From sequence record PZ445454.1: DNA of 64,000 nucleotides; one strand, 5' to 3'. Under the pieces are notes generated by a model. It saw nothing but the letters and a program-made list of their open reading frames with translations. It searched no databases and was not told the DNA's origin. Shown one piece after another: positions 6,885 to 46,858 of this stretch (its first letter is position 1; each line of letters begins with the position of its first letter). The position numbers were made by a program, and so were the translations under genes. The DNA comes from a phage.

Positions 6885-7451
6885 TCAACTTAGTTTTGCA
6901 AACTCTCCGTGGAGTTTAATAGCAGCTTCACAGTAAGCTTTATGGGCTTCTTCAGGTGTGTCATAGTAGCCTAATGACATCTTTTTACCTTTATAGCTTA
7001 TTTGCGCAAGCCACCTACCAGACTTCTTCTTCAGGCTTACACCCTTATAGCCTGATTTATTGGTAGATAGTTTGCTTTTATTCCAAGCACTTTGGCAGTC
7101 ATCTGCTTCTCTTAAGTTTACAACCCTGTTATCAAGGGAGTCCCCATTAATATGGTCGATAACACCTCTCGGTAGCCTACCATACACGTACAGCCATGCG
7201 AGTCTGTGTGCTTTATGTGCTTTCTTGTCAAAATAGATAGTAATCTGCTTATGACCAGTTGAGTCAATCTGGATGCTCCCCGCTACCTGTCCTGCGTACT
7301 TACTATTAAAGACTTTAACAGCCCTTGAGTCACCCTCTCTACGAAGCCAAGTAAAGACCCCTGTTTCGGGGTCATAGTGTAGTAGCTCCTTTAAACGTTC
7401 TTGTGTAATCATTTTGTCACCATTAATGCACTTCCAACCACGATTTACCAA
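6885..7451 (-). CDS. HNH homing endonuclease with AP2-type DNA-binding domain
   Basis: 188 aa; HNH motif DHINGDSLDNRVVNLREADDCQSAWN plus AP2-like YKGVSLKKKSGRWLAQISYKGKKMSLGYYDTPEEAHKAY; immediately downstream of the DNA polymerase. Confidence 0.8.
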   Translation of the reverse strand: MVNRGWKCINGDKMITQERLKELLHYDPETGVFTWLRREGDSRAVKVFNSKYAGQVAGSIQIDSTGHKQITIYFDKKAHKAHRLAWLYVYGRLPRGVIDHINGDSLDNRVVNLREADDCQSAWNKSKLSTNKSGYKGVSLKKKSGRWLAQISYKGKKMSLGYYDTPEEAHKAYCEAAIKLHGEFAKLS

Positions 7452-10152
7452 CCTTGCCAGTACCAGTTACCAGTGTTTCACTCTTTAGTCCTAAGTTCTT
7501 AGAGGCTTGCCCGTAATACCAATCAGTGACAGCCTTCACCTCTGCCGTCATACTTTCTGGGCATTCCCAACTCGTCTCGTCGTGATAGGAGCACAATAAA
7601 CGAGCACCTATAGCTGGTTTGCGACCGTTCAACTTCATCAAACCTTCGTCAATCATACGACGGCAAGCAAGGTTAATTGCCTCGTTCTGAATCTGACTTT
7701 CCGAACCCATGAGCAAATAATTCAATAACTTATGTGGAGATTTACACCACAACCAAGCTCCAGCAACCTTTACAAAACCCCCTTTAGAGATTGCAGCAGT
7801 CTTACCAAACACCTCTTCAAGTGCCTTTTTAGTTGCTTTGTAGTCAGCTTCCAAGTCATCTAACAGCTTCTTAATTTTAGGTAAACGAATAAAGTAAGTC
7901 TGTTTAGTCAGTGCGCCTTCCTGAGTAGTTGCAGCTTTAATCGTCTTAGCAAACTTCTCATCCCCTGCACCGAACAGTAGTGCATAGATACCATTCTTAG
8001 CTTTCTTACGACCTTTGCTAATCTCATGAAGAAGACTCTCATCCTGAGTAGCTCGACAAGTCAAGATGTCCTGCTCATCATTCAAGCTAAAGTAAATACT
8101 GTTCAGGGTGTGTGCATCAGTCCCTGAATAGACAACGTACAGGTCATTCTCAGAGTCATAGTGAAGGTACTTATCAATCTCTGGGTTGAGATACTCATCG
8201 AAGTGTTTGCAGTAATAGCGTCCATCTTCTTGACGAGTAAACTCAATTTCTTCTTTACCTTGCGTTACCGCTTTGGTGAAATCTTTATCACCCATAAAGT
8301 TACAAAGAAGAACTAACTGGGCTGAGTTCATGTCTACAGAGACAACGTTAGTACCTTCCTCACAAATCCACACTGCCCTCATTGGTTCCCCATAGACAGC
8401 AGCACCAGACGGTACGTTTACAATACCATATTGTGTCATACGTCCAGTTGAAGTACCAAACACCATTGCACCAGCACTAAGGCGACCATCAGGACGAATC
8501 TGGTTCAACCAACCTTTTTCATCATCCTTTGAGTTCTCAATAGTTCTGCGTCTGTGCATCAAAGTGTAGTATTTCGCAATCTTCTGTCCAAGCTCACCTT
8601 CAATCGTATCATAAGATGATTCAGTAAGTTTTGGTGAAGTACGGATTAAGCAAGGCTCAAGCAAATCTGTGTACTTCTTCACAGACCAGTTATGCTCAAT
8701 GTACTGTACACCTTCATGTTCAACATAACTCAAGCCACACCGCTCAACCATTTCCTGCCACTTAGGATGTTTTGTAATCATCTTTTTATTGTCTTTGAAA
8801 CGACAAACTTTGACAGGGCGACCATCAGAGTCTTTCTTGTAGTTCCAGTCATCTGGAATCCAACCAACTGATTTCAAGTAGTCTTTAACAACTGCTACCT
8901 GAGTCATACGAGAAACTTCAAACTCAATTGGTGTATACGGTGCATCAATCAAACCTGTGTAGCGACTTGACTCAAGTTCAAAGTGGTTAACAACGTGACT
9001 GTTATAATACTTCACAGTTTTAACTGTTTTTACTGGCTTCCAATCTTTGCATTTCTTACCCATCTTTGCATTCAACTCATTGCAAATTGCACGAGCATCC
9101 TTCATTGCTACAAAACCTTCCTTGTACTCTTCACCAGTTACAGTGTTGGTTGGTGTATAGCAATTCCTTTTTTCAATGTTAAAAATCTTTGTAGTTGGCT
9201 TACCAAATGGCTTGATTTCATATGTTTGCATCTCACCATTACGTACCTGCTGACGATACTTTGTCTTAGGGTACTTGGTAATTCTTTTCAGTCCATCTGC
9301 ATGACCAAATGTTTCAACATACTCATTCCAAGCTTTTGCAAACTCTTCTCCAGTGACTTTACCTTTGGTCTTAATAGTTGGAGGAAGATGTGGTTCAACC
9401 TCTGAAGCAAGCTCATTAGTCAACTTGTCAAGTTCCTTTACATGGAACTCCATAAGCTCTTTATCAGCTTTCCAACCATTAATAGCTTGTTGACTCATCC
9501 AGAAAGATGTTTCTTTAGCTCGCATGTAGGTTTCATAAGTATCTATACCACACTTCTTAAGCTTGAGATATTCATTATCAAGTGCCCGTTTAGTTTTGGC
9601 GTTAATACGAATATCTTCTACAACACGAGTGAAGATTTCTGCATTCCACACACCCCAATGCTCAATCTCTGGTTTACGAACACCAACACGAGCACCCCAT
9701 GCAGCCAAACCATGAGCACCTTTATAACCCTTTGGAGTTGGTCTATCCATCCACTGAACACGAGACTGGATAAGAGAGTCCTGAAAGAAATTACTCCACG
9801 GTTTACACTTTGGATTATCAAAGTTCCATAAATCCGGTGCAATGTGATTGAAAACCCACCAGTCATAACCGAGGCCATTATGGATACAAAGACGTTTTGC
9901 CTTTAACGCAAACTCAATACCTTCACGTAAACCACCCTTAATGTACTTAGTGTACTTGTGACCGAGGATAGGCTCATCTGTAAAGACCCATACAGGCGGC
10001 TCTTCATCGTCAGATTTATAGTCTGCAAAGGCCATTACGTGAACTTTAGTGAACTCAAGGAGTAAACCATCAGTTTCTGTATCACCAACCAAATGTAAGT
10101 TTTTAAAATCTACGTTTTCCATTTTTACTCCCTCTAAAACCATTAACCTCAT
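7423..10152 (-). CDS. DNA polymerase, family A, with 3'-5' exonuclease domain
   Basis: 909 aa; N-terminal exonuclease motif GDTETDGL; C-terminal motif-C-like YHDE; size and context fit a phage Pol I-type polymerase. Confidence 0.9.
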   Translation of the reverse strand: MRLMVLEGVKMENVDFKNLHLVGDTETDGLLLEFTKVHVMAFADYKSDDEEPPVWVFTDEPILGHKYTKYIKGGLREGIEFALKAKRLCIHNGLGYDWWVFNHIAPDLWNFDNPKCKPWSNFFQDSLIQSRVQWMDRPTPKGYKGAHGLAAWGARVGVRKPEIEHWGVWNAEIFTRVVEDIRINAKTKRALDNEYLKLKKCGIDTYETYMRAKETSFWMSQQAINGWKADKELMEFHVKELDKLTNELASEVEPHLPPTIKTKGKVTGEEFAKAWNEYVETFGHADGLKRITKYPKTKYRQQVRNGEMQTYEIKPFGKPTTKIFNIEKRNCYTPTNTVTGEEYKEGFVAMKDARAICNELNAKMGKKCKDWKPVKTVKTVKYYNSHVVNHFELESSRYTGLIDAPYTPIEFEVSRMTQVAVVKDYLKSVGWIPDDWNYKKDSDGRPVKVCRFKDNKKMITKHPKWQEMVERCGLSYVEHEGVQYIEHNWSVKKYTDLLEPCLIRTSPKLTESSYDTIEGELGQKIAKYYTLMHRRRTIENSKDDEKGWLNQIRPDGRLSAGAMVFGTSTGRMTQYGIVNVPSGAAVYGEPMRAVWICEEGTNVVSVDMNSAQLVLLCNFMGDKDFTKAVTQGKEEIEFTRQEDGRYYCKHFDEYLNPEIDKYLHYDSENDLYVVYSGTDAHTLNSIYFSLNDEQDILTCRATQDESLLHEISKGRKKAKNGIYALLFGAGDEKFAKTIKAATTQEGALTKQTYFIRLPKIKKLLDDLEADYKATKKALEEVFGKTAAISKGGFVKVAGAWLWCKSPHKLLNYLLMGSESQIQNEAINLACRRMIDEGLMKLNGRKPAIGARLLCSYHDETSWECPESMTAEVKAVTDWYYGQASKNLGLKSETLVTGTGKVGKSWLEVH

Positions 10153-23307: not shown

Positions 23308-24504
23308 ATGAACAAAGTACAGATTATTAAAAAGAATGGCTCACTCGAAGAACCTGATATCAAAAAAGTTTTAGCAGCAGTCACAAAGTCAGCTAATAGG
23401 GTTGGGTATAGAGAACTCCCACCAGATGTTACCCAAGCTCTTGAGTCAGCATTTATGAGGATTCTGGTAAAATCCACTAAGCAGAATAACTTGCTCATCT
23501 CGGTAAATGATATCCACAGTATCGTTGAAGGTGCTTTGGCAGAAGTCAATCACGAGATTTATGAGTCTTACTCAACATACAGAAATTACCGTAAAGAGGT
23601 TGCTCAAAATTGGGATGAACTCTACCAGAAGACTAAAGATACACTCTTCTTAGGTGACCGTGAAAATGCTAACTTTGACAGTAGTTTAATTTCTACGAAA
23701 GGTTCAATTATCCGTGGTTACCTGACTAAAGAAATCTTTAAACAGTATCATCTAACACCAGAGGAACTTGAAGCCATTGAGAAAGGCTTTATCTATATCC
23801 ACGATTTGAGAGACCTGATTTTTGGTGGTATTAACTGTTGCCTGTTTGACATTGGTAAAGTCCTGAAAGGTGGCTTTGAAATGTCTGGCATCGAATATTG
23901 TGAACCAAAGTCTGTGCTGTCGGCCTTACAGGTTATTGGTGACGTAGTTCTTTCAGCAACTGCACAGCAATTTGGTGGCTTTACTTTAGCAGAGATTGAT
24001 AAGGTACTTGTGCCGTATGCTAAGAAGTCTCTACGCTACCATGCTGAGAAAGCAGCATCTTATGGTATTCCTAAAGAACATTACCATAATTATGTCATGG
24101 AGCAGCTACAGCTTGAATTGACTCAAGGTTTTCAATCACTTGAAATGAAACTAAACACTGTACCTTGTAGCCGTGGGGATTTTGCATTCACAACTTTGAC
24201 ATTTGGTTTACTTGACTCAGATATGTCTAATGAAGACAACCGGCTACAATACATGATTGCAAGTACTCTCCTAGATGTTCGTATGAATGGACAAGGTAAG
24301 AGCAAGAAGCCTGTTGTATTCCCTAAACTGGTTTATATCTATGACCAGAAGAGACATGATGAAAATATCTGTCAAGGTCACCTGTACAGTAAAGCCATTG
24401 AGTGCTGCTCTAAAGCAATGTATCCAGATTTCTTAAGTGTATCTGGTCATGGTGCTGTAGCAGAGGCTTTTGAGCGTTCTGGTAAGGTTATTTCACCGAT
24501 GGGT
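23308..24504 (+). CDS. nrdD: anaerobic ribonucleotide reductase, exon 1
   Basis: ORF ends ...SPMG then stop; the stop lies in the intron; continuation CRAFLSPY...GRANIGAVSLNLP found in frame at 25247. Confidence 0.8.
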
Positions 24505-25246
24505 TAACAGGCTCTATAGCTCATCTAAAACGTGCCTAAACAGGGAAACTCTACAGATGTAGACAATCCTGTGCTAAATGATGTAAGATGTAAGAAACTA
24601 TATAACATAGGAGTATTACATGCCAAATTATCATGTTACTGAAGACGGAAGAGTCTTTAGAGAAAATGGTGTAGAGCTTACACAGTGGAAATCCAACACT
24701 GGGTATATGAAAGTAAAGTTTTACGGTAAGAAGAATCGTGACATGTATGTCCATAGGTTAGTTGCTGAGAAATATGTACCTAACCCAAACAATCTTCCAA
24801 TTGTAAAACACAAAGATGATAACAAACTGAACAACCATGCTTCTAACTTAGAATGGGGAACTCATTCTGAGAATGTTAAAGAAGGTTATGAGAACGGTTG
24901 CTACAAGTTTTGTAAGCGTTCATATGCTGTGAAGGCTACACACAAAGTGACAAAAGAAGTTATTGCTGCCAAGTCAATACGAGAGTTATCCAATATACTC
25001 GGATATAATCGCAAGACTATCTCTTCAATATTGAAGGGTGTAAAAGAGCATAATAACTTTGAACATGAATTTGAATACATCTAAATGCCGAACGACTAAC
25101 CGTGATGAATGTAGCGGTGTAGGGTCAAGCGACTCGAAATGGTACGCTACTTAGAAATAAGTAGAAGATATAGTCTGGACTTACTGGTGACAGTAAGCAG
25201 CTTGGATAAAGCGGGGTAAGCGTAGCGAACTTGCCTGAACAACAAG
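24505..25246 (+). mobile_element. group I self-splicing intron interrupting nrdD, carrying an HNH homing endonuclease ORF
   Basis: 5' exon ends in T, intron ends in G; 5' region (CTAAACAGGGAAACTCT...GTAGACAATCCTGTGCTAAAT) resembles the T4 td/nrdD intron core as I recall it; ORF in a peripheral loop. Confidence 0.8.
24620..25084 (+). CDS. HNH homing endonuclease (intron-encoded)
   Basis: 154 aa; HKDDNKLNNHASNLEWGTHSEN HNH motif. Confidence 0.8.
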   Translation: MPNYHVTEDGRVFRENGVELTQWKSNTGYMKVKFYGKKNRDMYVHRLVAEKYVPNPNNLPIVKHKDDNKLNNHASNLEWGTHSENVKEGYENGCYKFCKRSYAVKATHKVTKEVIAAKSIRELSNILGYNRKTISSILKGVKEHNNFEHEFEYI

Positions 25247-26194
25247 TGTAGAGCATTTTTATCACCATACCATAACGAAGATGGTGAAGAGTTTTATGTA
25301 GGTCGTGCTAACATTGGTGCTGTGTCTTTGAACTTACCAATGATTTACCAGTATTCTAAAGAGAATGGTTTAGATTTCTGGAAAGAGCTTGATAAGTACC
25401 TAGAGATGATTCGTAGTTTCCACAAGAAACGCTATGAAATGATTGCCAATATGCCAGCAAGTTCTAACCCTCTTGCATTTACACAAGGTGGTCTGTACAA
25501 AGGAACTAAGAAGCCTACTGACAGGGTTGGTTGGGATATTGTGAAGTCCTTCACAGCTTCTTTTGGGGTTACTGCGCTTGATGAGCTATCTGTTCTTGCT
25601 GAAGGTAAACGACTTCATGAAGTTGGAAGTTATAGTTTTGCATATGATGTTCTGGCATACATCAACATGAAAACTGAAGAGTTTAAAAATGAAGATGGCT
25701 TCTTATATGCCGTCTATGGTACTCCAGCAGAATCACTTTGTGGAACTCAGCTAAAACAGTTCAGAGAAATGTTTGGTGTTATCAAAGGTGTTTCTGATAA
25801 GGAATATTTTACAAACAGTTTCCATATGAATGTTGCAGCAGACATCTCACCATTTGAGAAGCAGGACTTAGAAGAACCATTCTTCCATATCTGTAGAGGT
25901 GGCAGAATCCAGTATGTAAGGGTAGCTAACCCAGAAAACTTAACAGCACTTAAAAGTTGTATTACAAGAGGGATGTTGAAAGGTTTTTATCAGGGACTTA
26001 ACTTTGACTTAGCAATCTGTGAACATTGTGGTAACAGACCAAAGGCTGATGTCGAAGAATGTGAGGTTTGCCATTCACATGATATCTCTGTGATTAACAG
26101 GGTGTGCGGATATCTGGGATGGACTAAGATTAAAGGTGAATCCCGAATGAATGATGCAAAAATCGCTGAGATTCGTGACAGGATTTCTATGTAA
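25247..26194 (+). CDS. nrdD: anaerobic ribonucleotide reductase, exon 2
   Basis: C-terminal Cys cluster CEHCG...CEVC and glycyl-radical motif RVCGYLG; ORF track 25322..26194 but the frame is open from 25247. Confidence 0.8.
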   Translation, partial: CRAFLSPYHNEDGEEFYVGRANIGAVSLNLPMIYQYSKENGLDFWKELDKYLEMIRSFHKKRYEMIANMPASSNPLAFTQGGLYKGTKKPTDRVGWDIVKSFTASFGVTALDELSVLAEGKRLHEVGSYSFAYDVLAYINMKTEEFKNEDGFLYAVYGTPAESLCGTQLKQFREMFGVIKGVSDKEYFTNSFHMNVAADISPFEKQDLEEPFFHICRGGRIQYVRVANPENLTALKSCITRGMLKGFYQGLNFDLAICEHCGNRPKADVEECEVCHSHDISVINRVCGYLGWTKIKGESRMNDAKIAEIRDRISM

Positions 26195-29141: not shown

Positions 29142-29412
29142 AGAGAAGTGGGAGATTTTACCATTAGTCAGTGAAGGTGGTAATGGTTGTGAAATGTACA
29201 TGATACGTGGTCATGTTCCAGAACCAATTGCGCTTGAGATGGTAAACAACTTTACAGATGGCTCTTACAAAGACTTAGGGGAGCCAACTATAAAGCAGCA
29301 ATGGGTAAAGCCTGTACCAGACAGCACAGGTAACTGTAGTGTACTTTATCACGTTGTAGACCCTGCAAAATGCAAATCTGCAATGGCAGTAACAAACGTA
29401 ACTTTTGATTGA
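29134..29412 (+). CDS. hypothetical protein
   Basis: 92 aa ORF. Confidence 0.45.
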   Translation: MAKEKWEILPLVSEGGNGCEMYMIRGHVPEPIALEMVNNFTDGSYKDLGEPTIKQQWVKPVPDSTGNCSVLYHVVDPAKCKSAMAVTNVTFD

Positions 29413-29423
29413 GAGATAAAACT

Positions 29424-30305
29424 ATGAAAACTGTTATTGAAGCCGTCGTCACCGCACAAGAGAAATTCTTCCACACAGAAAAATTCAATATCATTCAATT
29501 CCCATCTGGAGAAATTGGTGGAAACTTCTCTGAAGATTTTGTTAAGTTTACTGAGCGTAATGCTGGTAAGATTGATAATGTTATAATTACTGTACAGGGA
29601 TATGACAAAGATACACTGTTTGCATTAGCTTTGGCTAAGGATGCCGTTGACAGTCTTGTTCCCCAGAAATCAGCGATGAAAACCATTGTTTTCGGGTTCT
29701 TACCAAATGCTCGATATGACCGCCACATGTTCAAAGGTGATGCAGCAGCACTGAAAGTCTTTGCCAACCTAGTTAATGCAATGGGTTTTGATGCAGTATG
29801 TGCTCTTGACCCTCACAGTAATGTTGCAGAAAACTTATTTAAGTGCTTTCAAAGCATGAAGCAAAAAGATGTGGCAGTACACTTTGCAAGTGACCCACGC
29901 ATTGATTTCTTGGTAGCCCCAGATGCAGGTGCAGCTAAGAAGACTGAAGACACCGCTAAAGAGGTGGATAAACCGTATATCACAATGTCTAAGGTGCGCA
30001 ATCTTAAGACTGGAGAAATTACTGGTATGCGAATCCTTGATGATGTTGATTTGACAGATAAAACTGTCATGATTCTGGATGATATTTGTGATGGAGGCCG
30101 AACCTTCGTAGAGGCAGCGAAACACCTACGCGAAGCAGGTGCAAAACGTGTGGAACTCTATGTAACACATGGAATTTTCTCTAAAGGTGTTGAAAACTTG
30201 CTTGACAACGGAATCGACCATATCTACACTACAAACACTTTAGGTGAAGCTAAAGACCGTGGCTTAACACATTACGGTCAAGTGACTGTAGCAACCATTG
30301 ACTGA
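29424..30305 (+). CDS. ribose-phosphate pyrophosphokinase (PRPP synthetase)-like protein; candidate ADP-ribose pyrophosphokinase of a NAD+ reconstitution pathway
   Basis: PRTase-type motif MILDDICDGGRTF and PRPP-synthetase-like N-terminal half; ORF track start 29409 is non-ATG, ATG at 29424; immediately upstream of the NAMPT-like gene. Confidence 0.7.
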   Translation: MKTVIEAVVTAQEKFFHTEKFNIIQFPSGEIGGNFSEDFVKFTERNAGKIDNVIITVQGYDKDTLFALALAKDAVDSLVPQKSAMKTIVFGFLPNARYDRHMFKGDAAALKVFANLVNAMGFDAVCALDPHSNVAENLFKCFQSMKQKDVAVHFASDPRIDFLVAPDAGAAKKTEDTAKEVDKPYITMSKVRNLKTGEITGMRILDDVDLTDKTVMILDDICDGGRTFVEAAKHLREAGAKRVELYVTHGIFSKGVENLLDNGIDHIYTTNTLGEAKDRGLTHYGQVTVATID

Positions 30306-30313
30306 GATTTTAT

Positions 30314-30336
30314 AGGGGCTTGAAAGCCCCATTTTG
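30314..30336 (+). terminator. hairpin (terminator-like)
   Basis: GGGGCTTGAAAGCCCC followed by ATTTT. Confidence 0.4.
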
Positions 30337-30350
30337 AGAGAGACTAAAAG

Positions 30351-32132
30351 ATGACTAAATCACTTTACGCAGTACCAGCAGGTTTAAATGCAGATGCTTA
30401 CAAATCTGGTCATGTTTACCAGTACCCTAGTGCAACAGAATACTTGATGTTCAACCTGACACCACGTAGTGATAAATGGTTTAACAGCCCCTTAGCAATT
30501 GATGGTGTAGTGGCTTTTGGTATTCAGCGTTTTGTTAAAGATTACTTGATAGACCACTGGAACGCAACTTTCTTTGAGCGTGATAAAAAAGAAGCAATTG
30601 ACGAAATCTTAGAAGTCATGAATGGTGTTCTGGGTAAAGATGCTATCGGTCGAGAGCATTGGGAAGCACTTCACGACTTAGGCTATCTACCAGTTGAAGT
30701 ATATGCTGTAGAAGAAGGTACAGTTGTCCCTATGCGTGTCCCAATGATTGTCTTCCAGAACACTGTTTCAGGCTTCCATTGGGTAGCAGGTTATCTGGAA
30801 GATGCTTTCTCTGCTGAGATTTGGAAGGCTTGTACCATTGCAACTATTGCATTGCACTACAAACGCATCTGTAAGAAGTGGGCTGACCTTACTTGCGACA
30901 ATGACTTACATTTACCTTATCAGTGCCATGACTTTGCTATGCGTGGTATGTCCGGCTTTACTGATGACGCATTTAACGCTGTAGGCCACTTAACCAGCTT
31001 TAAAGGAACTGATAGCTTCCCTGCTGTGTATACGGCTAAACGAATATATGGACAGTCTTACCCAATCTCTGATATTGGTAGTTCTGTACCAGCCACTGAG
31101 CACTCTGTAATGTGTGCAAACATTGCTTGGGAAGGTGGTAATGAGTTGATTGAAGAAGAAAGACGCTTTAAAGGTGAGTTGCAAACCTTCCGTCGTTTCT
31201 TAACAGAAACTTACCCAACTGGTATTGCAAGTATTGTTTCAGATACTTATAACTTCTGGAGAACCGTGTCAGAAATCTTGCCAGCACTTCGTAAAGAAAT
31301 TATGGAACGTGATGGTAAGCTGGTAATTCGCCCTGACTCTGGAGACCCTGTACATATTGTCACAGGTTATAAAGCAATCCACTTAGAGTGTGCTAAGAAG
31401 GCTTATTACGAGCATCTAAGCAAGCTGGAAGCTAGTGACACAATGTTGGATGCTGTTCTGAACATGAAGCTTGAAAACATCAGCTATGGTATTGCTGGAT
31501 GGCTACTATCAGAAGGCTACGAAATGGTTGTTGACAGAGAAGACTTTGAAGTTGCTGATACAGTGATGTTGAAAAATGCTTATATGGTTGGTTCTGCAAA
31601 CGTTGTAACACGTCCTGTAGCTGAGATTGATGGAGCTATTAAGACACTGTACAACATCTTTGGAGGAACTACTAACTCTAAAGGGTTTAAGGTGCTGGAT
31701 GAGCATATCGGCCTTATCTATGGTGACTCTATCACGCTGGAACGTGCAAACGAAATCCTGAAGCGTCTGTATGAAATGGGTTTTGCAAGCTCTAACGTAG
31801 TGTTTGGTGTAGGCTCTTACACTTACCAGTACATGACTCGTGATACCTTTGCATTTGCTGTCAAAGCAACCCTTGCAAGCATTGGTGGTAAAGAGATTAT
31901 GCTTGCAAAAGACCCTAAAACAGATAGTGGTGTTAAGAAGTCTGCCTTTGGTGGTGTATCACCTATGTGGGATGGTGATAAGCTGAAAGCTGTAGATGGC
32001 TATGGATTCCAGAGTTTTGCAGATGTACTTGACCACCCAGCTTGTGCTTTACGTTTAGTCTTTAGTGACTCTGAGCAGTTCGGTTACACAACTCTTGGTG
32101 ATATTCGAAACAATATTGACAAGCAGCTTTAA
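30351..32132 (+). CDS. nicotinamide phosphoribosyltransferase (NAMPT/NadV)-like protein
   Basis: 593 aa; N-terminal DAYKSGH motif and length typical of the NAMPT family. Confidence 0.75.
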   Translation: MTKSLYAVPAGLNADAYKSGHVYQYPSATEYLMFNLTPRSDKWFNSPLAIDGVVAFGIQRFVKDYLIDHWNATFFERDKKEAIDEILEVMNGVLGKDAIGREHWEALHDLGYLPVEVYAVEEGTVVPMRVPMIVFQNTVSGFHWVAGYLEDAFSAEIWKACTIATIALHYKRICKKWADLTCDNDLHLPYQCHDFAMRGMSGFTDDAFNAVGHLTSFKGTDSFPAVYTAKRIYGQSYPISDIGSSVPATEHSVMCANIAWEGGNELIEEERRFKGELQTFRRFLTETYPTGIASIVSDTYNFWRTVSEILPALRKEIMERDGKLVIRPDSGDPVHIVTGYKAIHLECAKKAYYEHLSKLEASDTMLDAVLNMKLENISYGIAGWLLSEGYEMVVDREDFEVADTVMLKNAYMVGSANVVTRPVAEIDGAIKTLYNIFGGTTNSKGFKVLDEHIGLIYGDSITLERANEILKRLYEMGFASSNVVFGVGSYTYQYMTRDTFAFAVKATLASIGGKEIMLAKDPKTDSGVKKSAFGGVSPMWDGDKLKAVDGYGFQSFADVLDHPACALRLVFSDSEQFGYTTLGDIRNNIDKQL

Positions 32133-32530: not shown

Positions 32531-32871
32531 AAGCTATGAAAATCAAAGAGATGAACATCAACGTTGTCCTAGAAGAACGTTGGGAGAATATTAAGAAACC
32601 CGAAGATGGTAAAAAGTTTCTTAACAAAATTTTAGTAGCAGCTAAAGAAGAACTGACTGGTAAGGTTGCAGCAGCAATCACAATAAAAGTCTGTGTAAAA
32701 GGTCTTCCACAACATCACCAATTTGCTCTTGATGAGTTTAAAGAAAACTTCTACAATCCAAACAAACAGATGCTTGAAAGTAACTTTGCAGTGTCTACAA
32801 GTATCGTCCATGACAGAAGTTTTATCCTTTACAAAAATATGAGAGGTGAGCCATGCAAGCATATTGGATAG
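32524..32871 (+). CDS. hypothetical protein
   Basis: 115 aa ORF. Confidence 0.45.
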   Translation: MVKAMKIKEMNINVVLEERWENIKKPEDGKKFLNKILVAAKEELTGKVAAAITIKVCVKGLPQHHQFALDEFKENFYNPNKQMLESNFAVSTSIVHDRSFILYKNMRGEPCKHIG

Positions 32872-33029
32872 AAATTTTACTGTCACTTGGTAGTGTAGCA
32901 GTATTTGTTTACCTTCTTTGCAAGTACTATGCAGAGCACAAGAAGTGTGACTACTGTAACGGAGAAGGGTATACAAGAGCAGGTTGTTGCCCTATGTGTG
33001 GCGGTTCTGGTAAAATGTTTAATAAGTAA
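32853..33029 (+). CDS. small membrane-anchored zinc-ribbon protein (58 aa, below ORF-track cutoff)
   Basis: Own translation MQAYWIEILLSLGSVAVFVYLLCKYYAEHKKCDYCNGEGYTRAGCCPMCGGSGKMFNK; TM helix plus CxxCxGxG-type motifs. Confidence 0.35.
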   Translation: MQAYWIEILLSLGSVAVFVYLLCKYYAEHKKCDYCNGEGYTRAGCCPMCGGSGKMFNK

Positions 33030-33057
33030 TTTAACAGTAAACTAAGAGGAAAGTATT

Positions 33058-35424
33058 ATGCGCATGGTAAATGACCACGCAGAAGTGATTAAGAGTTCAA
33101 CTTCTTTGGAGACATCTCAAGCTCAGATTACAATGACACCTGAAATGTTCAGTCTTCTGAGTTCTGGTGTATATACCTTTAAAGAGAGGGCAGTGATTCG
33201 TGAACTGTCATGTAATGCAGTAGATGCTCAGAAAGAAGCTGGAAAAGAGAATATCCCGTTCCATGTGCATTTACCTACTCGTTTTGAGCCTTACTTTGAA
33301 GTCCGTGATTTTGGAACTGGATTGACTCATGATAAAGTTATGAGTTTGTATCTGAACTACGGGGCTTCTACGAAGAATGACTCTAATGATTACATTGGCG
33401 CAATGGGTATCGGCTCAAAATCCCCATTTGCAATTGCTCAGTCATTCACAGTATCTAGTTATGTTGATGGTGTTGTTAATAAGTACTCTGTTTACCTTGA
33501 GAATGGTATCCCTCAAGTAACTAAGCTTACTACTAACCCAACAAATGAACCCAATGGTTTAGCTGTACGTGTAGCAGTTGCTGACCACCGTATTTCAAAG
33601 TTCTTTGAAGAGGCTGGTCACGTATATTCATACTTTGCTGTAAAACCAGAAAGCAATATTGTATATGATGATGTGTTAGCAGATATGAACGTCATTGCCC
33701 GTGAAGAGGGTGTTTATGATGCTATGATTCATAAGCAAAGTTGGCGTTCTAGTGGTAACAGGACAGAGTTTAATGTGGTGATGGGTAACATTGCCTACCC
33801 TGTTAACATGGAAGCATTACTTGGTGATGATTTCTTCAAAGTCTTGCCAGAGTTTTTCCGTAGGAGTGTAGACCTTGTAAACATCTACATGCCTATTGGT
33901 TCAGTTGCTATAGCAGCTTCTCGTGAAGCATTGCAGATGAATGATACGACAAAAAATGTTATCATTGAGGCTACTAAAAAGATAACTGAAGCAATTACAA
34001 AGGATGTTATCAAGAAAGTTAATAGTCAACCTACACTCATGGATGCTGCACAGGCTTATGCTGAGTTACGTTTGAACTCACGAGAGATGTTTAATGCTGT
34101 GTGTCCGAAGCTGGAGTGGGGTGGCGTTAAGCTTGATTCTCTGGAAGAAGAATTACTAAACATTCGTCGTGGGATTATCTACGCAGAAGACGGCTCAGTC
34201 ATTTATGAACGTGACGGCAAAGGTAATATTAAGGTTGACAGTAAAGGAAACAACATTCCTAAAGTGGACTACCTATACAATCCAGTTGCTTATGTCAAGT
34301 TCAACTCTTTAGAGAGTAAGATTCGTGCAACAGCACTTTCCTACACTCAAGAGGCAAGTATGTTCAATATCTTTGGTGCAATGCGTAAAAGCCAAATTGA
34401 ACAGTTTTTGTTCGTGATTAATGACCGTCGCAATAAAAACGGAACTGAGAAGACTGTAGGACGCAATCAAATCTTGCGTGGTGCATGTCGAGACTACGCC
34501 AATGAGTCAAGTCTGTTTCACAGATACAATGGTATTGTGTTTGTTTTCTCGACTGAAAAAGAGCTAGATGACTTAATCAACCTACACAAACTTGATAAAA
34601 GCTTGTTAAAGATTGTGAAGATGTCTGATAAGGAACATCACTATCAGCGTAAAGAAGCTGTGAGGGGTGTTGTAAAACTCTGGAAAGCTGTTCCAGCAGA
34701 AGGTGTAGCTTCCTATAAAGAGGTTTCAGAGGACTTTGATACAATTGAAGAACCTCAGCTTTACATTAAGGCAGTTGGTGACACAGTTGATGGCGAATGT
34801 TTTTGCTCATCTCCAGAAGATGTAGCTAAGTCAGTCGCTAATGTTATAGGGAAGACAGTCTATGTTTTCCGAAAAGCAAATTGGAAAAAGATACCAGAAG
34901 ACTGGATTGAAGTAGATGAGAAACTATTGAATGACAGCCTAACTGATGTTCACTGGATTAATCATAACAGGTATATGACACGTATCTATATGAATGGTGT
35001 CCTTGACCTTACAAGTAGTTGGATTATTGCCAGAAACTTTACGTTTAATAACAAGAAGATTTCTCGCGGGTATTGCTATTCACGAGATACATACAAAACC
35101 ATCTTCTTAGAAGGTAATGAGAATGCTGTTGAGGCAATGTTTGGTAAGATTCAGTATGTGGCTGCACCGTTTGCATACACTTACACTATCAGTGTTCTTC
35201 AGGATTTGAAGTCATGCCTTGACAATGATACAAAACTGTACAAAAAGATTAAGAAAGCGGGTGACCGCATGGTTATCAAACTGACAAACTACCTTTCAAA
35301 AAGAAAACAAGAAAACTTCTTGCTTTCCCATTTAGATTGGAATAAAGTGTCACCCATCGAAGTGAGTAAGTTCTTAGGCTTTGATGTGAAGTGTGTTCCA
35401 GAAGGGACTACAATTTACGATTAA
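33058..35424 (+). CDS. GHKL-type ATPase domain protein, rIIA-like
   Basis: 788 aa; N-terminal Bergerat-fold motifs ELSCNAVDA (N-box), DFGTGL (G1), GAMGIGSKS (G2); rIIA proteins carry such a domain as far as I recall. Confidence 0.6.
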   Translation: MRMVNDHAEVIKSSTSLETSQAQITMTPEMFSLLSSGVYTFKERAVIRELSCNAVDAQKEAGKENIPFHVHLPTRFEPYFEVRDFGTGLTHDKVMSLYLNYGASTKNDSNDYIGAMGIGSKSPFAIAQSFTVSSYVDGVVNKYSVYLENGIPQVTKLTTNPTNEPNGLAVRVAVADHRISKFFEEAGHVYSYFAVKPESNIVYDDVLADMNVIAREEGVYDAMIHKQSWRSSGNRTEFNVVMGNIAYPVNMEALLGDDFFKVLPEFFRRSVDLVNIYMPIGSVAIAASREALQMNDTTKNVIIEATKKITEAITKDVIKKVNSQPTLMDAAQAYAELRLNSREMFNAVCPKLEWGGVKLDSLEEELLNIRRGIIYAEDGSVIYERDGKGNIKVDSKGNNIPKVDYLYNPVAYVKFNSLESKIRATALSYTQEASMFNIFGAMRKSQIEQFLFVINDRRNKNGTEKTVGRNQILRGACRDYANESSLFHRYNGIVFVFSTEKELDDLINLHKLDKSLLKIVKMSDKEHHYQRKEAVRGVVKLWKAVPAEGVASYKEVSEDFDTIEEPQLYIKAVGDTVDGECFCSSPEDVAKSVANVIGKTVYVFRKANWKKIPEDWIEVDEKLLNDSLTDVHWINHNRYMTRIYMNGVLDLTSSWIIARNFTFNNKKISRGYCYSRDTYKTIFLEGNENAVEAMFGKIQYVAAPFAYTYTISVLQDLKSCLDNDTKLYKKIKKAGDRMVIKLTNYLSKRKQENFLLSHLDWNKVSPIEVSKFLGFDVKCVPEGTTIYD

Positions 35425-35429
35425 AGTGT

Positions 35430-35459
35430 TTGACAAGGGGCTTCAAAGCCCCTTAGAAT
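35430..35459 (+). promoter_or_regulatory. candidate promoter with hairpin in the spacer
   Basis: TTGACA-AGGGGCTTCAAAGCCCC-TTAGAAT upstream of 35504. Confidence 0.4.
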
Positions 35460-35503
35460 AGCCTTACAAAATGATTTATTAACTAACAAGAGAGAGTAAT
35501 AAG

Positions 35504-36610
35504 ATGACTACTAAAACTAAAGCACAGATTGACGCAGAAATTTACGAACTGGTTAAAGAAGGTAAGCTGACTAAAACAGCTATTGCACAGAAGTTCAATA
35601 CTTCAACCCGTTCAGTTGGTCGTGCTGTAGAGCGTCATGAAGCAACCTTAAAAGGTAAGAAAAAGGTAGCTTCTAAACCAGCTACGAAGACTTTGAAGCA
35701 AGTTGCTAAATCAGTTAAAAAGAAAGCTGACAAGCCAGTTAAAAAGGCTGTTAAAGAGCCTGTACAGAAAGCTCCGGTAAATAAACTGCATGAAGCTATG
35801 CAGAATGGTAACCAGATTGAGTATATGATTACTGGCGATTCTGTTATCATGACTTTCGGTGCAGATTCTGAAATCGTTGAATCTACCCATCCGAACTACA
35901 AAGAAATTGTGATGGCTGTTGTATCCGGTGAGTATAAGAAAGCTTTCGAACTGATGAACATTCGTAAGTCTATCGAAAACTTCACTCAGGGTGCTATCAC
36001 CATCAAAGGTGATAAGCTATTCTATGGTGCTGTTGAGATGCGTTCTACTCTGGTTGACCGTATTCTTCACATGATGAAGACTGGTGATAAAGGTTTTGAA
36101 CGACTTGTAATGTTCTTCGAAAAACTGATGGAAAACCCATCTAAAGGTTCTGTAGAACAACTGTGGGGATTCATATCTCACCTTGATGTTGAAATTGATG
36201 AAGAAGGCTACATTATCGGTTGGAAAAAGGTACAAAGTAAAGCTGACGGTTCTCTGGTAGACAGCCACACCCATAAAGTACCTAATGACTTAGGTAACCT
36301 AGTTGAGATGCCTCGTTGGATGGTTGATAGTGACCCTAACCGCACTTGCTCTCAGGGTTTACATGTTGGTGCATGGGAATACGTATCATGTTTTGGAGGT
36401 GATACCATCCTGAAAGTTCGTGTCCACCCACGAGATGTTGTATCTGTTCCGATTGATTACAACGATATGAAGATGCGTGTATCAGCTTATGAGTCTTTTG
36501 CGATTGTTGACAGCAACCGTAAAGTTATCAAGACTCACTCTGGCTCTGGTGGTCATCGTGTAGTAATTGGTTCTCACGGCGAGTTAATCTCCAAGACACC
36601 ACGCGTTTAA
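35504..36610 (+). CDS. hypothetical protein, possible rIIB-like partner of the upstream ATPase
   Basis: 368 aa; N-terminal HTH-like segment, lysine-rich linker, conserved-looking C-terminal domain; rIIB assignment is by position and size only. Confidence 0.5.
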   Translation: MTTKTKAQIDAEIYELVKEGKLTKTAIAQKFNTSTRSVGRAVERHEATLKGKKKVASKPATKTLKQVAKSVKKKADKPVKKAVKEPVQKAPVNKLHEAMQNGNQIEYMITGDSVIMTFGADSEIVESTHPNYKEIVMAVVSGEYKKAFELMNIRKSIENFTQGAITIKGDKLFYGAVEMRSTLVDRILHMMKTGDKGFERLVMFFEKLMENPSKGSVEQLWGFISHLDVEIDEEGYIIGWKKVQSKADGSLVDSHTHKVPNDLGNLVEMPRWMVDSDPNRTCSQGLHVGAWEYVSCFGGDTILKVRVHPRDVVSVPIDYNDMKMRVSAYESFAIVDSNRKVIKTHSGSGGHRVVIGSHGELISKTPRV

Positions 36611-36621
36611 TAGTTTACAAT

Positions 36622-36647
36622 AGGCTGCTTCGGCGGCCTTTTTTATT
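36622..36647 (+). terminator. intrinsic terminator
   Basis: AGGCTGC-TTCG-GCGGCCT followed by TTTTTT. Confidence 0.6.
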
Positions 36648-36705
36648 TGTATTTTGTGCAGAGTGCTGTATAATTGATGTCACGATAAACTAAACAGGAG
36701 AACCA

Positions 36706-37254
36706 ATGAAGAAGTTGATTCTAGGTTTGTGCTTAATGTTTACAGCACACTTATCTTATGCAGTTGACTGCCCAGAGCTATCAATTAGCCAAAAAGTAAA
36801 CATGTTAAAAGCTTACCAGTATGGTGAGAATAACATGGGTAAAGGTTGGGGTATCACTCTAGCTGCTATAGCCTTACAAGAGTCAGAGTTAGGTCTGAAG
36901 GTAGAGAATAAAAAGACACATGATTATGGTATTTTCCAGAATCACTTGAAGACTGTTGTAAAGCGTAACAAAATCAGTCCTAATGTGGCTAAAAAGAAAC
37001 TCTTAAGAGACTTTGATTATGCTGCGAAGGAAACTCACAAAGAGCTTGAGTTTTGGACAAAGGTGCATGGTCAGCCAAAGTCAAAGAAGACTTTACAAAA
37101 AGTTTTAGCATCATATAATGCTGGGTATTCGTACAGAATCCCTAAAGCTAAGAAATATTCTCAAGATGTCTATAACAACATGAAAGTCATCGCTCAATGT
37201 GAATTTGCAACAAACATTTCTAAGGTAAACCATGAAAAAATTAAGAAAGTCTGA
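36706..37254 (+). CDS. secreted lytic transglycosylase-like protein (SLT domain)
   Basis: 182 aa; signal peptide MKKLILGLCLMFTAHLSYA; SLT-like motifs ES, GIFQ and SYNAG. Confidence 0.55.
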   Translation: MKKLILGLCLMFTAHLSYAVDCPELSISQKVNMLKAYQYGENNMGKGWGITLAAIALQESELGLKVENKKTHDYGIFQNHLKTVVKRNKISPNVAKKKLLRDFDYAAKETHKELEFWTKVHGQPKSKKTLQKVLASYNAGYSYRIPKAKKYSQDVYNNMKVIAQCEFATNISKVNHEKIKKV

Positions 37255-45762: not shown

Positions 45763-46104
45763 ATGGCTTATGTAACCGTAATTACCGATAAAGCTGGCTC
45801 ATCTTGGTCAACTCAAGTAAGCGATAATCTATCACCTATGCAGTGCCTAAAATACTTTGAGCAATGGAATAAAGGTGAGGATACAAGCCCCTTTCAAGTG
45901 ATGCAGATTATACATGTAGACAATGAAGGGAAGAAAACGACTTTAAACAGCGAGTTCTACGCAACCCGATTTGAAACGAGATGTAAAACGATGAAGTTAT
46001 TACGTGAATCCGGTTATGCCCATATCGCCGCGTTAATCTGGGATGACCTGCTAAAAAACCAACGTATGAACTATGTAAAACCTGAAAAAATATTCATCAG
46101 TTAA
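45763..46104 (+). CDS. hypothetical protein (cassette gene 10)
   Basis: 113 aa. Confidence 0.55.
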   Translation: MAYVTVITDKAGSSWSTQVSDNLSPMQCLKYFEQWNKGEDTSPFQVMQIIHVDNEGKKTTLNSEFYATRFETRCKTMKLLRESGYAHIAALIWDDLLKNQRMNYVKPEKIFIS

Positions 46105-46239
46105 TCAATAACTTACAAAAAACTTTTAAAAAAGTGTTGACAATACCCCTTGACATTGGTAACTTTGTTCGAGGGGGTTTATCTAAAAGGGATTAACTTA
46201 AAAGATTCTTTATAGATAAACTTAAAAAATTGCTTGCAA

Positions 46240-46327
46240 TCAGATATCAAAACAAGTAAATTACTAATCAACGGTGAGGGAATGAACTTCCTCACTAAAT
46301 AAAGTCCTTAAACTAGGAGATTCAAAA
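46240..46327 (+). repeat. conserved intergenic regulatory cassette, type B variant
   Basis: CAACGGTGAGGGAATGAACTTCCTCACTAAATAAAGTCCTTAAACTAGGAGATTCAAAA-ATG. Confidence 0.65.
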
Positions 46328-46858
46328 ATGAACAAGTTCAAAGCTATCAACTACATCCGTTCAAGTAGTGTCATGTCAAAGCCTGTTAAAGATACCTATG
46401 AATTTCGTTGCAATGGTGTACACTTTGCAACCATTACCAAATCAGAAAACGGGGCTTATTACGTTCATCGTCGTAATGTTGCAACAGTTGTAGTCTCTCA
46501 CTTTATGCAAGCTGTAGCAGAATTATTACCGTTATTCTTAGGGATTTACTTGGATGAGTGTAAAAACGTTCACAACCACGTTAAAAGCCTTTTAAACAGT
46601 TATAAAATGGCTTATGAACGTTCTATCAAGTCCTTAAACAAGTTCTATAAAGCCCCTGTAAATACTGTTTCAATGGCCTACGCTGCAAATGGTGAAAGAG
46701 TAAACCTATCCGATGTGGAAGATATCGAGCTTTACAACCATCGGCCTAACGGTTACTCTCAGACTCTAGGTGAAGGTTTAACTTTCAATATCAAGAACTT
46801 AGAAAAAACTTTAAAAGATATTGAAAAAGATATTGACGAGACAATCAAAAATCTGTAA
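46328..46858 (+). CDS. hypothetical protein (cassette gene 11)
   Basis: 176 aa. Confidence 0.6.
   Translation: MNKFKAINYIRSSSVMSKPVKDTYEFRCNGVHFATITKSENGAYYVHRRNVATVVVSHFMQAVAELLPLFLGIYLDECKNVHNHVKSLLNSYKMAYERSIKSLNKFYKAPVNTVSMAYAANGERVNLSDVEDIELYNHRPNGYSQTLGEGLTFNIKNLEKTLKDIEKDIDETIKNL

What the first reader, a model, noticed from the sequence alone, without database searches (positions are those of the whole stretch)
33058..36610. GHKL-ATPase protein plus partner resembling an rIIA/rIIB pair
The 788 aa protein has unmistakable Bergerat-fold motifs (ExxxNAxDA, DxGxG, GxxGxG) and is followed by a 368 aa partner. Size, order and the ATPase domain fit rIIA/rIIB, proteins implicated in resistance to abortive-infection exclusion. 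Calling it topoisomerase or MutL is less likely given the lack of matching downstream domains.
Basis: partly seen in the sequence, partly recalled or inferred. Interest (0 to 1): 0.5.

Follow-up and report, generated by a model that had tools for sequence, protein, structure and literature searches.

The report
Ordinary phage rIIA/rIIB gene pair

Summary
ORFs 33058-35424 (788 aa) and 35504-36610 (368 aa) exist on the + strand. All three Bergerat motifs are present (E49LSCNAVDA, D84FGTG, G114AMGIG) and their key residues are invariant in 44 diverse homologues.

The interpretation also holds. The proteins match the PHROG families that contain T4 rIIA and rIIB (E 4e-189 and 2e-87). They align directly to T4 rIIA (32% identity, E 2e-37) and T4 rIIB (36%, E 3e-63).

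The window is a Felixounavirus, about 94% identical in DNA to more than 200 deposited phages that annotate this pair as rIIA/rIIB. FelixO1 "gene 1" has been called rIIA since 2010.

In the related phage SUSP1 (63% and 77% identical), published knockdown of either gene sensitises the phage to lambda RexAB. The biochemical mechanism is still unknown in every phage.

Verdict: correct call, already known, low interest.

The parts
33058..35424 (+). rIIA gene (788 aa)
   Evidence: ORF. phrog_612 RIIA at E 4.1e-189 over the full length. 32% identity to T4 rIIA over aa 24-317, E 2e-37. 63% identity over the full length to SUSP1 rIIA. 99.4% identity to the annotated rIIA of Salmonella phage PMBT20.
33130..34023 (+). 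rIIA N-terminal GHKL (Bergerat) ATPase module plus adjoining transducer-like domain, about aa 25-322
33202..33228 (+). GHKL motif I, E49-LSC-N53-AV-D56-A (candidate catalytic Glu and Mg-binding Asn)
   Evidence: Position. E49, N53 and D56 are invariant in 44 homologues. The residue roles are inferred from established GHKL biochemistry.
33307..33321 (+). GHKL motif II, D84-F-G86-T-G88
   Evidence: Position. D84 and G86 are invariant and G88 is at least 90% conserved.
33397..33414 (+). GHKL motif III / ATP-lid, G114-AM-G117-I-G119
   Evidence: Position. G114, G117 and G119 are invariant. Residues 101-119 have pLDDT below 50 in the model, which suits a flexible lid.
34024..35421 (+). rIIA C-terminal region (about aa 323-788), lineage-variable
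35430..35459 (+). sigma-70-like promoter match in the rIIA-rIIB spacer (TTGACA, 18 nt, TAGAAT), whose spacer forms a perfect 7-bp hairpin
   Evidence: Consensus scan, 11 of 12 hexamer matches. Hairpin AGGGGCTTCAAAGCCCCT. This is a consensus match only; function is not shown.
35504..36610 (+). rIIB gene (368 aa)
   Evidence: ORF. phrog_609 RIIB at E 2.2e-87. 36% identity to T4 rIIB over aa 11-330, E 3e-63. 77% identity to SUSP1 rIIB. All 102 listed homologues except one truncated fragment carry PF26926 Phage_T4_rIIB.
35519..35653 (+). rIIB N-terminal helix-turn-helix domain (aa 6-50)
35660..35770 (+). rIIB lysine-rich disordered linker (aa 53-89)
   Evidence: pLDDT below 50. The sequence is KKVASKPATKTLKQVAKSVKKKADKPVKKAVKEPVQK.
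35783..36607 (+). rIIB conserved body (aa 94-368); the most conserved core is aa 194-329
   Evidence: Invariant residues are G235, G264, C282, H287, Y293, P309, V313, P316, K323 and R325 in 45 homologues. It aligns to T4 rIIB. It has no solved relative by sequence or by fold.
36622..36639 (+). intrinsic-terminator-like hairpin plus T-run just after rIIB
   Evidence: AGGCTGCTTCGGCGGCCT followed by TTTTTTATTT, 7 pairs of which 5 are GC.

Best explanation
These are the rIIA and rIIB genes of a Felixounavirus (FelixO1-like myovirus), orthologues of the classical phage T4 rII genes. They form a two-protein module that is dispensable on naive hosts. It lets the phage grow on cells carrying Rex-type (lambda RexAB-like) exclusion systems, which otherwise abort infection by depolarising the membrane.

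Shown here: homology to T4 rIIA and rIIB; conserved rIIA-then-rIIB order; a GHKL ATPase module with intact, invariant nucleotide-binding motifs in rIIA; a helix-turn-helix, a disordered basic linker and a conserved C-terminal domain in rIIB; and no predicted transmembrane helix in either protein.

Shown by others, in a relative with 63% and 77% identity (SUSP1): knockdown of either gene lowers plating efficiency only when RexAB is present.

Inferred mechanism: rIIA works as an ATP-driven Hsp90/MORC-like clamp or remodeller, not as a topoisomerase or mismatch-repair enzyme. Together with DNA-binding rIIB, it prevents the infection-specific trigger (phage replication or recombination DNA-protein intermediates) from activating RexA/RexB, or it neutralises the activated complex at the membrane. 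That biochemical step has not been established in any phage.
For: - **PHROG:** rIIA matches phrog_612 at E 4.1e-189 over the full length, and rIIB matches phrog_609 at E 2.2e-87. T4 rIIA and rIIB are in the same PHROGs.
- **BLASTP to T4:** rIIA E 2e-37, rIIB E 3e-63.
- **rIIA C-terminal half alone:** phrog_612 at E 4.6e-44.
- **Deposited records:** 257 phage records match the DNA, 210 of them over at least 80% of the query, mostly 90-95% identical and annotated rIIA/rIIB.
- **Synteny:** identical in HMD-P10 and SUSP1. The rIIA-then-rIIB order also holds in three loci at 30-40% rIIA identity and in T4 across the ends of the deposited record.
- **GHKL fold:**, with invariant motifs.
- **rIIB HTH:**
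- **Hydrophobicity:** the maximum 19-residue Kyte-Doolittle average is 1.29 for rIIA and 0.78 for rIIB, below the customary 1.6 threshold for a transmembrane helix.
- **Literature:** rII knockdown in T4, MM02, EdH4, SUSP1 and N4 reduces plating efficiency only on RexAB-expressing E. coli (PMC11879866). rIIA is described as an N-terminal GHKL domain plus a variable C-terminal domain within a 'poorly understood counter-defense system' (PMC7824862). FelixO1 gene 1 is rIIA (PMC3185647).
Against: - Nothing was tested on this phage itself. The Rex phenotype is transferred from SUSP1, which belongs to another genus of the same subfamily.
- ATPase activity, an rIIA-rIIB interaction and any DNA binding by rIIB are all unproven.
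- The database label 'lysis inhibitor' reflects the historical T4 rapid-lysis phenotype and may not describe the primary function.
- Many hosts of these phages (Salmonella, Citrobacter, Shigella) do not carry lambda, so the natural target may be a different exclusion system.
- The full-length query scores below threshold against the Pfam GHKL models.
Confidence: 0.93

Rival explanations
1. The 788-aa protein is the ATPase subunit of a phage type II topoisomerase (GyrB, ParE, T4 gp39 or Topo VI-B type), with the 368-aa protein as its partner subunit.
Against: - Sequence identity in those matches is only 11-14%.
- Pfam finds no Toprim, DNA_gyraseB or DNA_topoisoIV domain in either protein.
- A family profile against all PDB sequences hits only Hsp90-family proteins and no topoisomerase at E<=1.
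- The partner is an rIIB (E 3e-63 to T4 rIIB), not a GyrA, gp52 or Topo VI-A homologue.
- T4 encodes rIIA in addition to its topoisomerase genes 39, 52 and 60.
Confidence: 0.01
2. The 788-aa protein is a MutL or MORC-like DNA mismatch, nicking or chromatin-compaction ATPase.
Against: - Pfam finds no DNA_mis_repair or MutL_C domain.
- No MORC or MutL sequence is hit by the family profile.
- The C-terminal 460 residues match only the rIIA PHROG.
- The resemblance is confined to the shared GHL/MORC ATPase module.
Confidence: 0.02
3. The pair is primarily a regulator of phage development, with rIIB acting as a transcription factor and rIIA as its ATPase partner that tunes timing or lysis. It would not be a dedicated anti-exclusion module, and Rex sensitivity of mutants would be a secondary consequence.
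For: rIIB has a confident N-terminal HTH resembling sigma region 4 and the DeoR and LuxR DNA-binding domains. Iyer et al. classify rIIB as a specific transcription factor (PMC7824862). The classical T4 r phenotype is altered lysis timing, which is why the database label is 'lysis inhibitor'.
Against: Knockdown of rIIA or rIIB in five phages, including SUSP1, has no effect without RexAB (PMC11879866). That argues against an important general regulatory role under laboratory conditions. No DNA target is known.
Confidence: 0.12

Closest known systems
Phage T4 rIIA / rIIB (Benzer's rII locus; GenBank AF158101, AAD42647 and AAD42649)
   Same: - They fall in the same PHROG families.
- The gene order is the same, with rIIA directly upstream of rIIB.
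- rIIA shares the N-terminal GHKL module with the same motifs.
- rIIB aligns over almost its whole length, including the N-terminal HTH region and the conserved C-terminal core.
   Different: - Identity is only 32% for rIIA (N-terminal about 300 aa by BLASTP) and 36% for rIIB.
- The rIIA C-terminal half is recognisable only by profile.
- This rIIA is 63 aa longer and this rIIB 56 aa longer.
- The neighbours differ: NAD-salvage genes and a small membrane zinc-finger ORF here, against rIIA.1 and topoisomerase gene 60 in T4.
rIIA / rIIB of Felixounavirus and other Ounavirinae (FelixO1 genes 1 and 2; HMD-P10; PMBT20; SUSP1 ALH46972 and ALH46973)
   Same: These are essentially the same genes. DNA identity is about 94% to HMD-P10 and many others. 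rIIA protein is 99.4% identical to PMBT20. Identity to SUSP1 is 63% and 77%, with identical flanking gene order. SUSP1 rII has been tested experimentally against RexAB (PMC11879866).
   Different: Only point differences within the genus. No record in the collection searched is identical at the DNA level; the best is 95.2% over 96% of the query.
Hsp90 family (TRAP1, HtpG, Grp94) and other GHL/MORC ATPases
   Different: Only about 110 residues align to the Hsp90 model, and the score of 42.6 bits is far below the 455-bit cut-off. There is no Hsp90 middle or C-terminal domain. This is a resemblance in how it may work, not family membership.

Membership tests
rIIA (T4-type) | Significant full-length sequence homology to T4 rIIA | tested here: met
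   phrog_612 matches at E 4.1e-189, covering residues 1-770 on profile positions 1-716 of 725. T4 rIIA matches the same PHROG at E 9e-250. BLASTP to T4 rIIA gives E 2e-37 over aa 24-317. The C-terminal half alone matches phrog_612 positions 309-716 at E 4.6e-44.
rIIA (T4-type) | N-terminal GHKL/Bergerat ATPase domain with conserved motifs I-III | tested here: met
rIIA (T4-type) | Encoded directly upstream of an rIIB gene on the same strand | tested here: met
   A 79-nt spacer separates the genes. The same arrangement is seen in T4, HMD-P10, SUSP1 and three distant loci.
rIIA / rIIB | Loss of function gives sensitivity to lambda RexAB exclusion (and rapid lysis in T4) | not testable with these tools
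   This needs phage genetics. It has been reported for the SUSP1 orthologues (63% and 77% identity) by CRISPRi-ART knockdown (PMC11879866). It has not been tested for this phage.
rIIB (T4-type; Pfam PF26926 Phage_T4_rIIB) | Sequence homology to T4 rIIB across the conserved C-terminal core | tested here: met
   BLASTP to T4 rIIB gives 36% identity over aa 11-330, E 3e-63. phrog_609 matches at E 2.2e-87. Homologues up to 96% identical carry PF26926. That model is absent from the local Pfam copy, so the query itself could not be scored against it.
Type II topoisomerase ATPase subunit (GyrB, ParE, gp39, Topo VI-B) | Toprim or topoisomerase-specific transducer domains, plus a DNA-cleaving partner subunit | tested here: not met
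   Pfam finds no Toprim, DNA_gyraseB or topo IV domain in either protein. The family profile hits no topoisomerase in PDB at E<=1. The partner is rIIB. Only GHKL-superfamily fold similarity exists, at 11-14% identity.
MutL / MLH | DNA_mis_repair transducer domain and MutL C-terminal dimerisation or endonuclease domain | tested here: not met
Hsp90 / HtpG | Full-length match to the Hsp90 N, middle and C-terminal domains | tested here: not met
   The NCBIfam HSP90-family model scores 42.6 bits against a 455-bit cut-off, and only profile positions 15-128 of 604 align.

The most novel reading that the evidence does not exclude
In Ounavirinae the rII module may have a third component. This is the 58-aa protein encoded immediately upstream of rIIA (32853-33029), which has one N-terminal hydrophobic helix followed by two DnaJ-type CxxCxGxG zinc-finger motifs. 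It is kept in that position from this phage to SUSP1 and to Pectobacterium phage Wc4-1, where rIIA is only 40% identical. It could tether the soluble, Hsp90-like rIIA ATPase to the inner membrane, where RexB-type channels act. That would explain the long-standing puzzle that rII proteins fractionate with membranes although they lack transmembrane segments. The membrane-fractionation point is from my own knowledge of the older T4 literature and was not checked here.
Probability: 0.1. Interest if true: 0.5.

Novelty: already known. Interest (0 to 1): 0.08.

Why it matters
It matters little as a discovery. The pair is annotated as rIIA/rIIB in hundreds of Felixounavirus genomes, the FelixO1 genome paper of 2010 opened the genome map at rIIA, and the GHKL domain of rIIA is already in the literature.

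The value here is confirmation. A reader working from raw sequence made the right call, and the structure predictions add detail that fits published descriptions: a GHL/MORC-type two-domain ATPase module in rIIA, and an HTH plus an orphan conserved domain in rIIB.

The general open question is how rII proteins biochemically block Rex-type abortive infection, unanswered about 70 years after Benzer. It is real, but this locus does not make it more testable than T4 or SUSP1 already do.

Tried and rejected
- **Topoisomerase or MutL membership:** rejected. Neither protein has the family-specific domains, and profile hits in PDB are Hsp90 only.
- **Hsp90 membership:** rejected. The score is 42.6 bits against a 455-bit cut-off.
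- **phmmer of rIIA alone against PDB:** no hit at E<=1.
- **rIIB family profile against PDB:** nothing significant; the best is E 0.17, to designed helical repeat proteins.
- **Rfam over 32800-36800 at E<=1:** no structured RNA family in or around the locus.
- **PADLOC:** only a weak match of the rIIA GHKL region to the N-terminus of TmtA, and nothing for rIIB or the small upstream ORF.
- **T4 rIIA.1 as a counterpart of the small upstream zinc-finger ORF:** rejected, because the sequence is unrelated and has no cysteine motifs or hydrophobic helix.
- **Recurrence of the hairpin-in-promoter element:** only one convincing instance in the window, so it is not a repeated regulatory family here.
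- **First literature search ('rIIA', 'rIIB'):** swamped by Fc-gamma receptor papers. One search failed on a two-letter term.
- **Not used, because the answer was already clear:** the exhaustive representative-protein search, the metagenome and genome contig scans, and the third fold search.
Full report
**What is there.** Each has a plausible Shine-Dalgarno sequence. The 79-nt spacer holds a sigma-70-like promoter match, TTGACA-18-TAGAAT at 35430-35459, whose spacer is a perfect 7-bp hairpin. A terminator-like hairpin with a T-run follows the second gene at 36622-36639.

**Where the window comes from.** The 3.5-kb locus matches 257 phage records, 210 of them over at least 80% of its length and mostly at 90-95% DNA identity. 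Almost all are Escherichia, Salmonella, Shigella or Citrobacter phages of the genus Felixounavirus, and the genes under the match are annotated rIIA and rIIB. At protein level rIIA is 99.4% identical to the annotated rIIA of Salmonella phage PMBT20. The surrounding gene order is identical in Escherichia phage HMD-P10 and in phage SUSP1 of the sister genus Suspvirus. That order is ribose-phosphate pyrophosphokinase, nicotinamide phosphoribosyltransferase, three small ORFs, rIIA, rIIB, an SLT-like protein, polynucleotide kinase and the spanins. [quoted passage not shown]

**Family membership.**
- rIIA matches PHROG 612 ("RIIA lysis inhibitor") at E 4.1e-189 over essentially its whole length, and rIIB matches PHROG 609 at E 2.2e-87.
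- T4 rIIA and rIIB, taken from the T4 GenBank record, fall in the same two PHROGs.
- Direct BLASTP gives 32% identity to T4 rIIA over residues 24-317 (E 2e-37) and 36% identity to T4 rIIB over residues 11-330 (E 3e-63).
- BLASTP cannot align the rIIA C-terminal half to T4. By itself it still matches the C-terminal part of the rIIA PHROG (profile positions 309-716, E 4.6e-44). [quoted passage not shown]
- All 102 listed rIIB homologues but one truncated fragment, including ones 96% identical to this protein, carry Pfam PF26926. A later look-up names it Phage_T4_rIIB. That model is missing from the local Pfam copy, which explains the empty Pfam result for rIIB.
- The order rIIA then rIIB also holds in T4 (across the ends of the deposited record) and in three distant loci where rIIA is only 30-40% identical.

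**The ATPase domain.**
- Pfam does not score the query above threshold: no family for the full protein at E<=0.01, and HATPase_c at E 0.077 for the N-terminal 330 aa. Many homologues do carry PF13589 HATPase_c_3.
- In a 44-sequence alignment going down to 22% identity, E49, N53, D56, D84, G86, G114, G117 and G119 are invariant.
- A profile of that alignment, searched against all PDB sequences, finds only Hsp90-family N-domains (TRAP1 at E 8e-5, then HtpG and Grp94). It finds no topoisomerase or MutL.
- The 250-306 aligned residues cover both the Bergerat fold and the adjoining second domain, the architecture typical of the GyrB-Hsp90-MutL/MORC branch.
- The low-confidence segment 101-119 coincides with motif III, as expected for a mobile ATP lid.
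- Invariant R289-E290 in the second domain is a candidate gamma-phosphate sensor. This is my inference by analogy with other GHL ATPases and was not tested.
- Identity to all these structures is only 10-19%. None of the family-specific downstream domains (Toprim, DNA gate, MutL C-terminal domain, Hsp90 middle and C domains) is detected. The similarity is therefore at superfamily level.

**The partner.** The rIIB model (mean pLDDT 84.0) has three parts.
- A disordered lysine-rich linker (aa 53-89).
- A conserved body whose core (aa 194-329) holds invariant residues including C282, H287, K323 and R325. It has no solved relative by sequence or by fold.

Neither protein has a segment hydrophobic enough for a transmembrane helix. 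The maximum 19-residue Kyte-Doolittle averages are 1.29 and 0.78.

**How it most likely works.**
- From the literature: T4 rII mutants cannot grow on lambda lysogens because of RexA and RexB (PMC11077077; PMC8594841).
- SUSP1's proteins are 63% (rIIA) and 77% (rIIB) identical to those in the window over their full lengths. Transferring that function is therefore reasonable, though it is not proven for this phage.
- My inference: rIIA acts as an ATP-driven clamp or remodeller of the Hsp90/MORC kind. Together with DNA-binding rIIB, it prevents the infection-specific signal from activating the Rex-type system. No paper I read establishes this step, and the module is repeatedly called "poorly understood".
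- The database label "lysis inhibitor" records the historical T4 plaque phenotype, not a mechanism.
- PHROG 609 is 1055 positions long. Its first roughly 310 positions match rIIA and its last roughly 300 match rIIB. This suggests that the family includes natural rIIA-rIIB fusions, which would fit the two proteins acting together. I did not verify this by inspecting members.

**Verdict.** The finding is ordinary: a correctly recognised, already annotated rIIA/rIIB pair in a Felixounavirus genome.

**Noticed along the way.**
- The anaerobic ribonucleotide reductase gene nrdD is interrupted by an HNH endonuclease ORF, with sub-threshold group I intron signal.
- A conserved 58-aa membrane and zinc-finger ORF sits directly upstream of rIIA.
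- A block of 25 tRNA genes lies at 58.6-63.6 kb.
- An NAD-salvage gene pair lies just upstream of the locus.

Noticed in passing
window 23308-26194: The anaerobic ribonucleotide reductase large-subunit gene nrdD is split. 23308-24507 (399 aa) matches NrdD profile positions 1-392 and 25322-26194 (290 aa) matches positions 419-711. An HNH homing-endonuclease ORF (24620-25084) lies between them. A relaxed Rfam search gives sub-threshold group I intron hits at 24912-25197 (38.9 bits against a gathering score of 50, E 4e-8 for that stretch) and 24540-24637. SUSP1 has an uninterrupted 713-aa nrdD. This is probably an endonuclease-carrying group I intron, like the one in T4 nrdD (the T4 comparison is from my own knowledge).
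   Followed up: partly
window 32853-33029 (+): A 58-aa ORF lies immediately upstream of rIIA. It has an N-terminal hydrophobic helix followed by two DnaJ-type zinc-finger motifs (CDYCNGEG and CPMCGGSG). It is conserved in the same position in HMD-P10 (annotated 'membrane protein'), SUSP1 and Pectobacterium phage Wc4-1, but is replaced by an unrelated 86-94 aa ORF in two more distant rIIA loci. It is not related to T4 rIIA.1 and has no PADLOC hit. It is a possible membrane-anchored accessory of the Hsp90-like rIIA.
   Followed up: partly
window 35430-35459 (+): A sigma-70-like promoter match (TTGACA, 18 nt, TAGAAT) sits in the rIIA-rIIB spacer. Its spacer is a perfect 7-bp GC-rich hairpin (AGGGGCTTCAAAGCCCCT). 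It could be a promoter, an attenuator or a processing site. It is the only clear instance of this arrangement in the window.
   Followed up: partly
window 58577-63556 (+): There is a cluster of 25 tRNA genes, with several ORFs interspersed, including two tRNA-Met, two tRNA-Lys, two tRNA-Gln, two tRNA-Arg(tct) and three tRNA-Leu (Rfam confirms 23 of them). This is typical of FelixO1-like phages; 22 were reported for FelixO1 (PMC3185647, abstract listed). One of the tRNA-Arg(tct) calls, at 63384-63476, is unusually long at 93 nt.
   Followed up: no
window 29409-32132 (+): An NAD-salvage gene pair lies just upstream of the rII locus: a ribose-phosphate pyrophosphokinase-like protein (298 aa) and a nicotinamide phosphoribosyltransferase (593 aa). 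NAMPT stays close upstream of rIIA even in loci where rIIA is only 30-40% identical. Phage NAD salvage has been discussed as a counter to host NAD depletion (PMC7824862), so this region may be a counter-defence neighbourhood.
   Followed up: partly
window 53537-54919 (-): A 460-aa protein matches a 'tail protein' PHROG over its N-terminal part and carries several repeats resembling Hoc-like, Ig-like decoration domains.
   Followed up: no
window, about 10000 and about 46000-56000: GC skew changes sign near 10 kb and again, less sharply, across 46-56 kb. This coincides with switches in coding strand: minus-strand genes lie before 10.2 kb (for example DNA polymerase at 7423-10152) and around 53.5-54.9 kb.
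   Followed up: no
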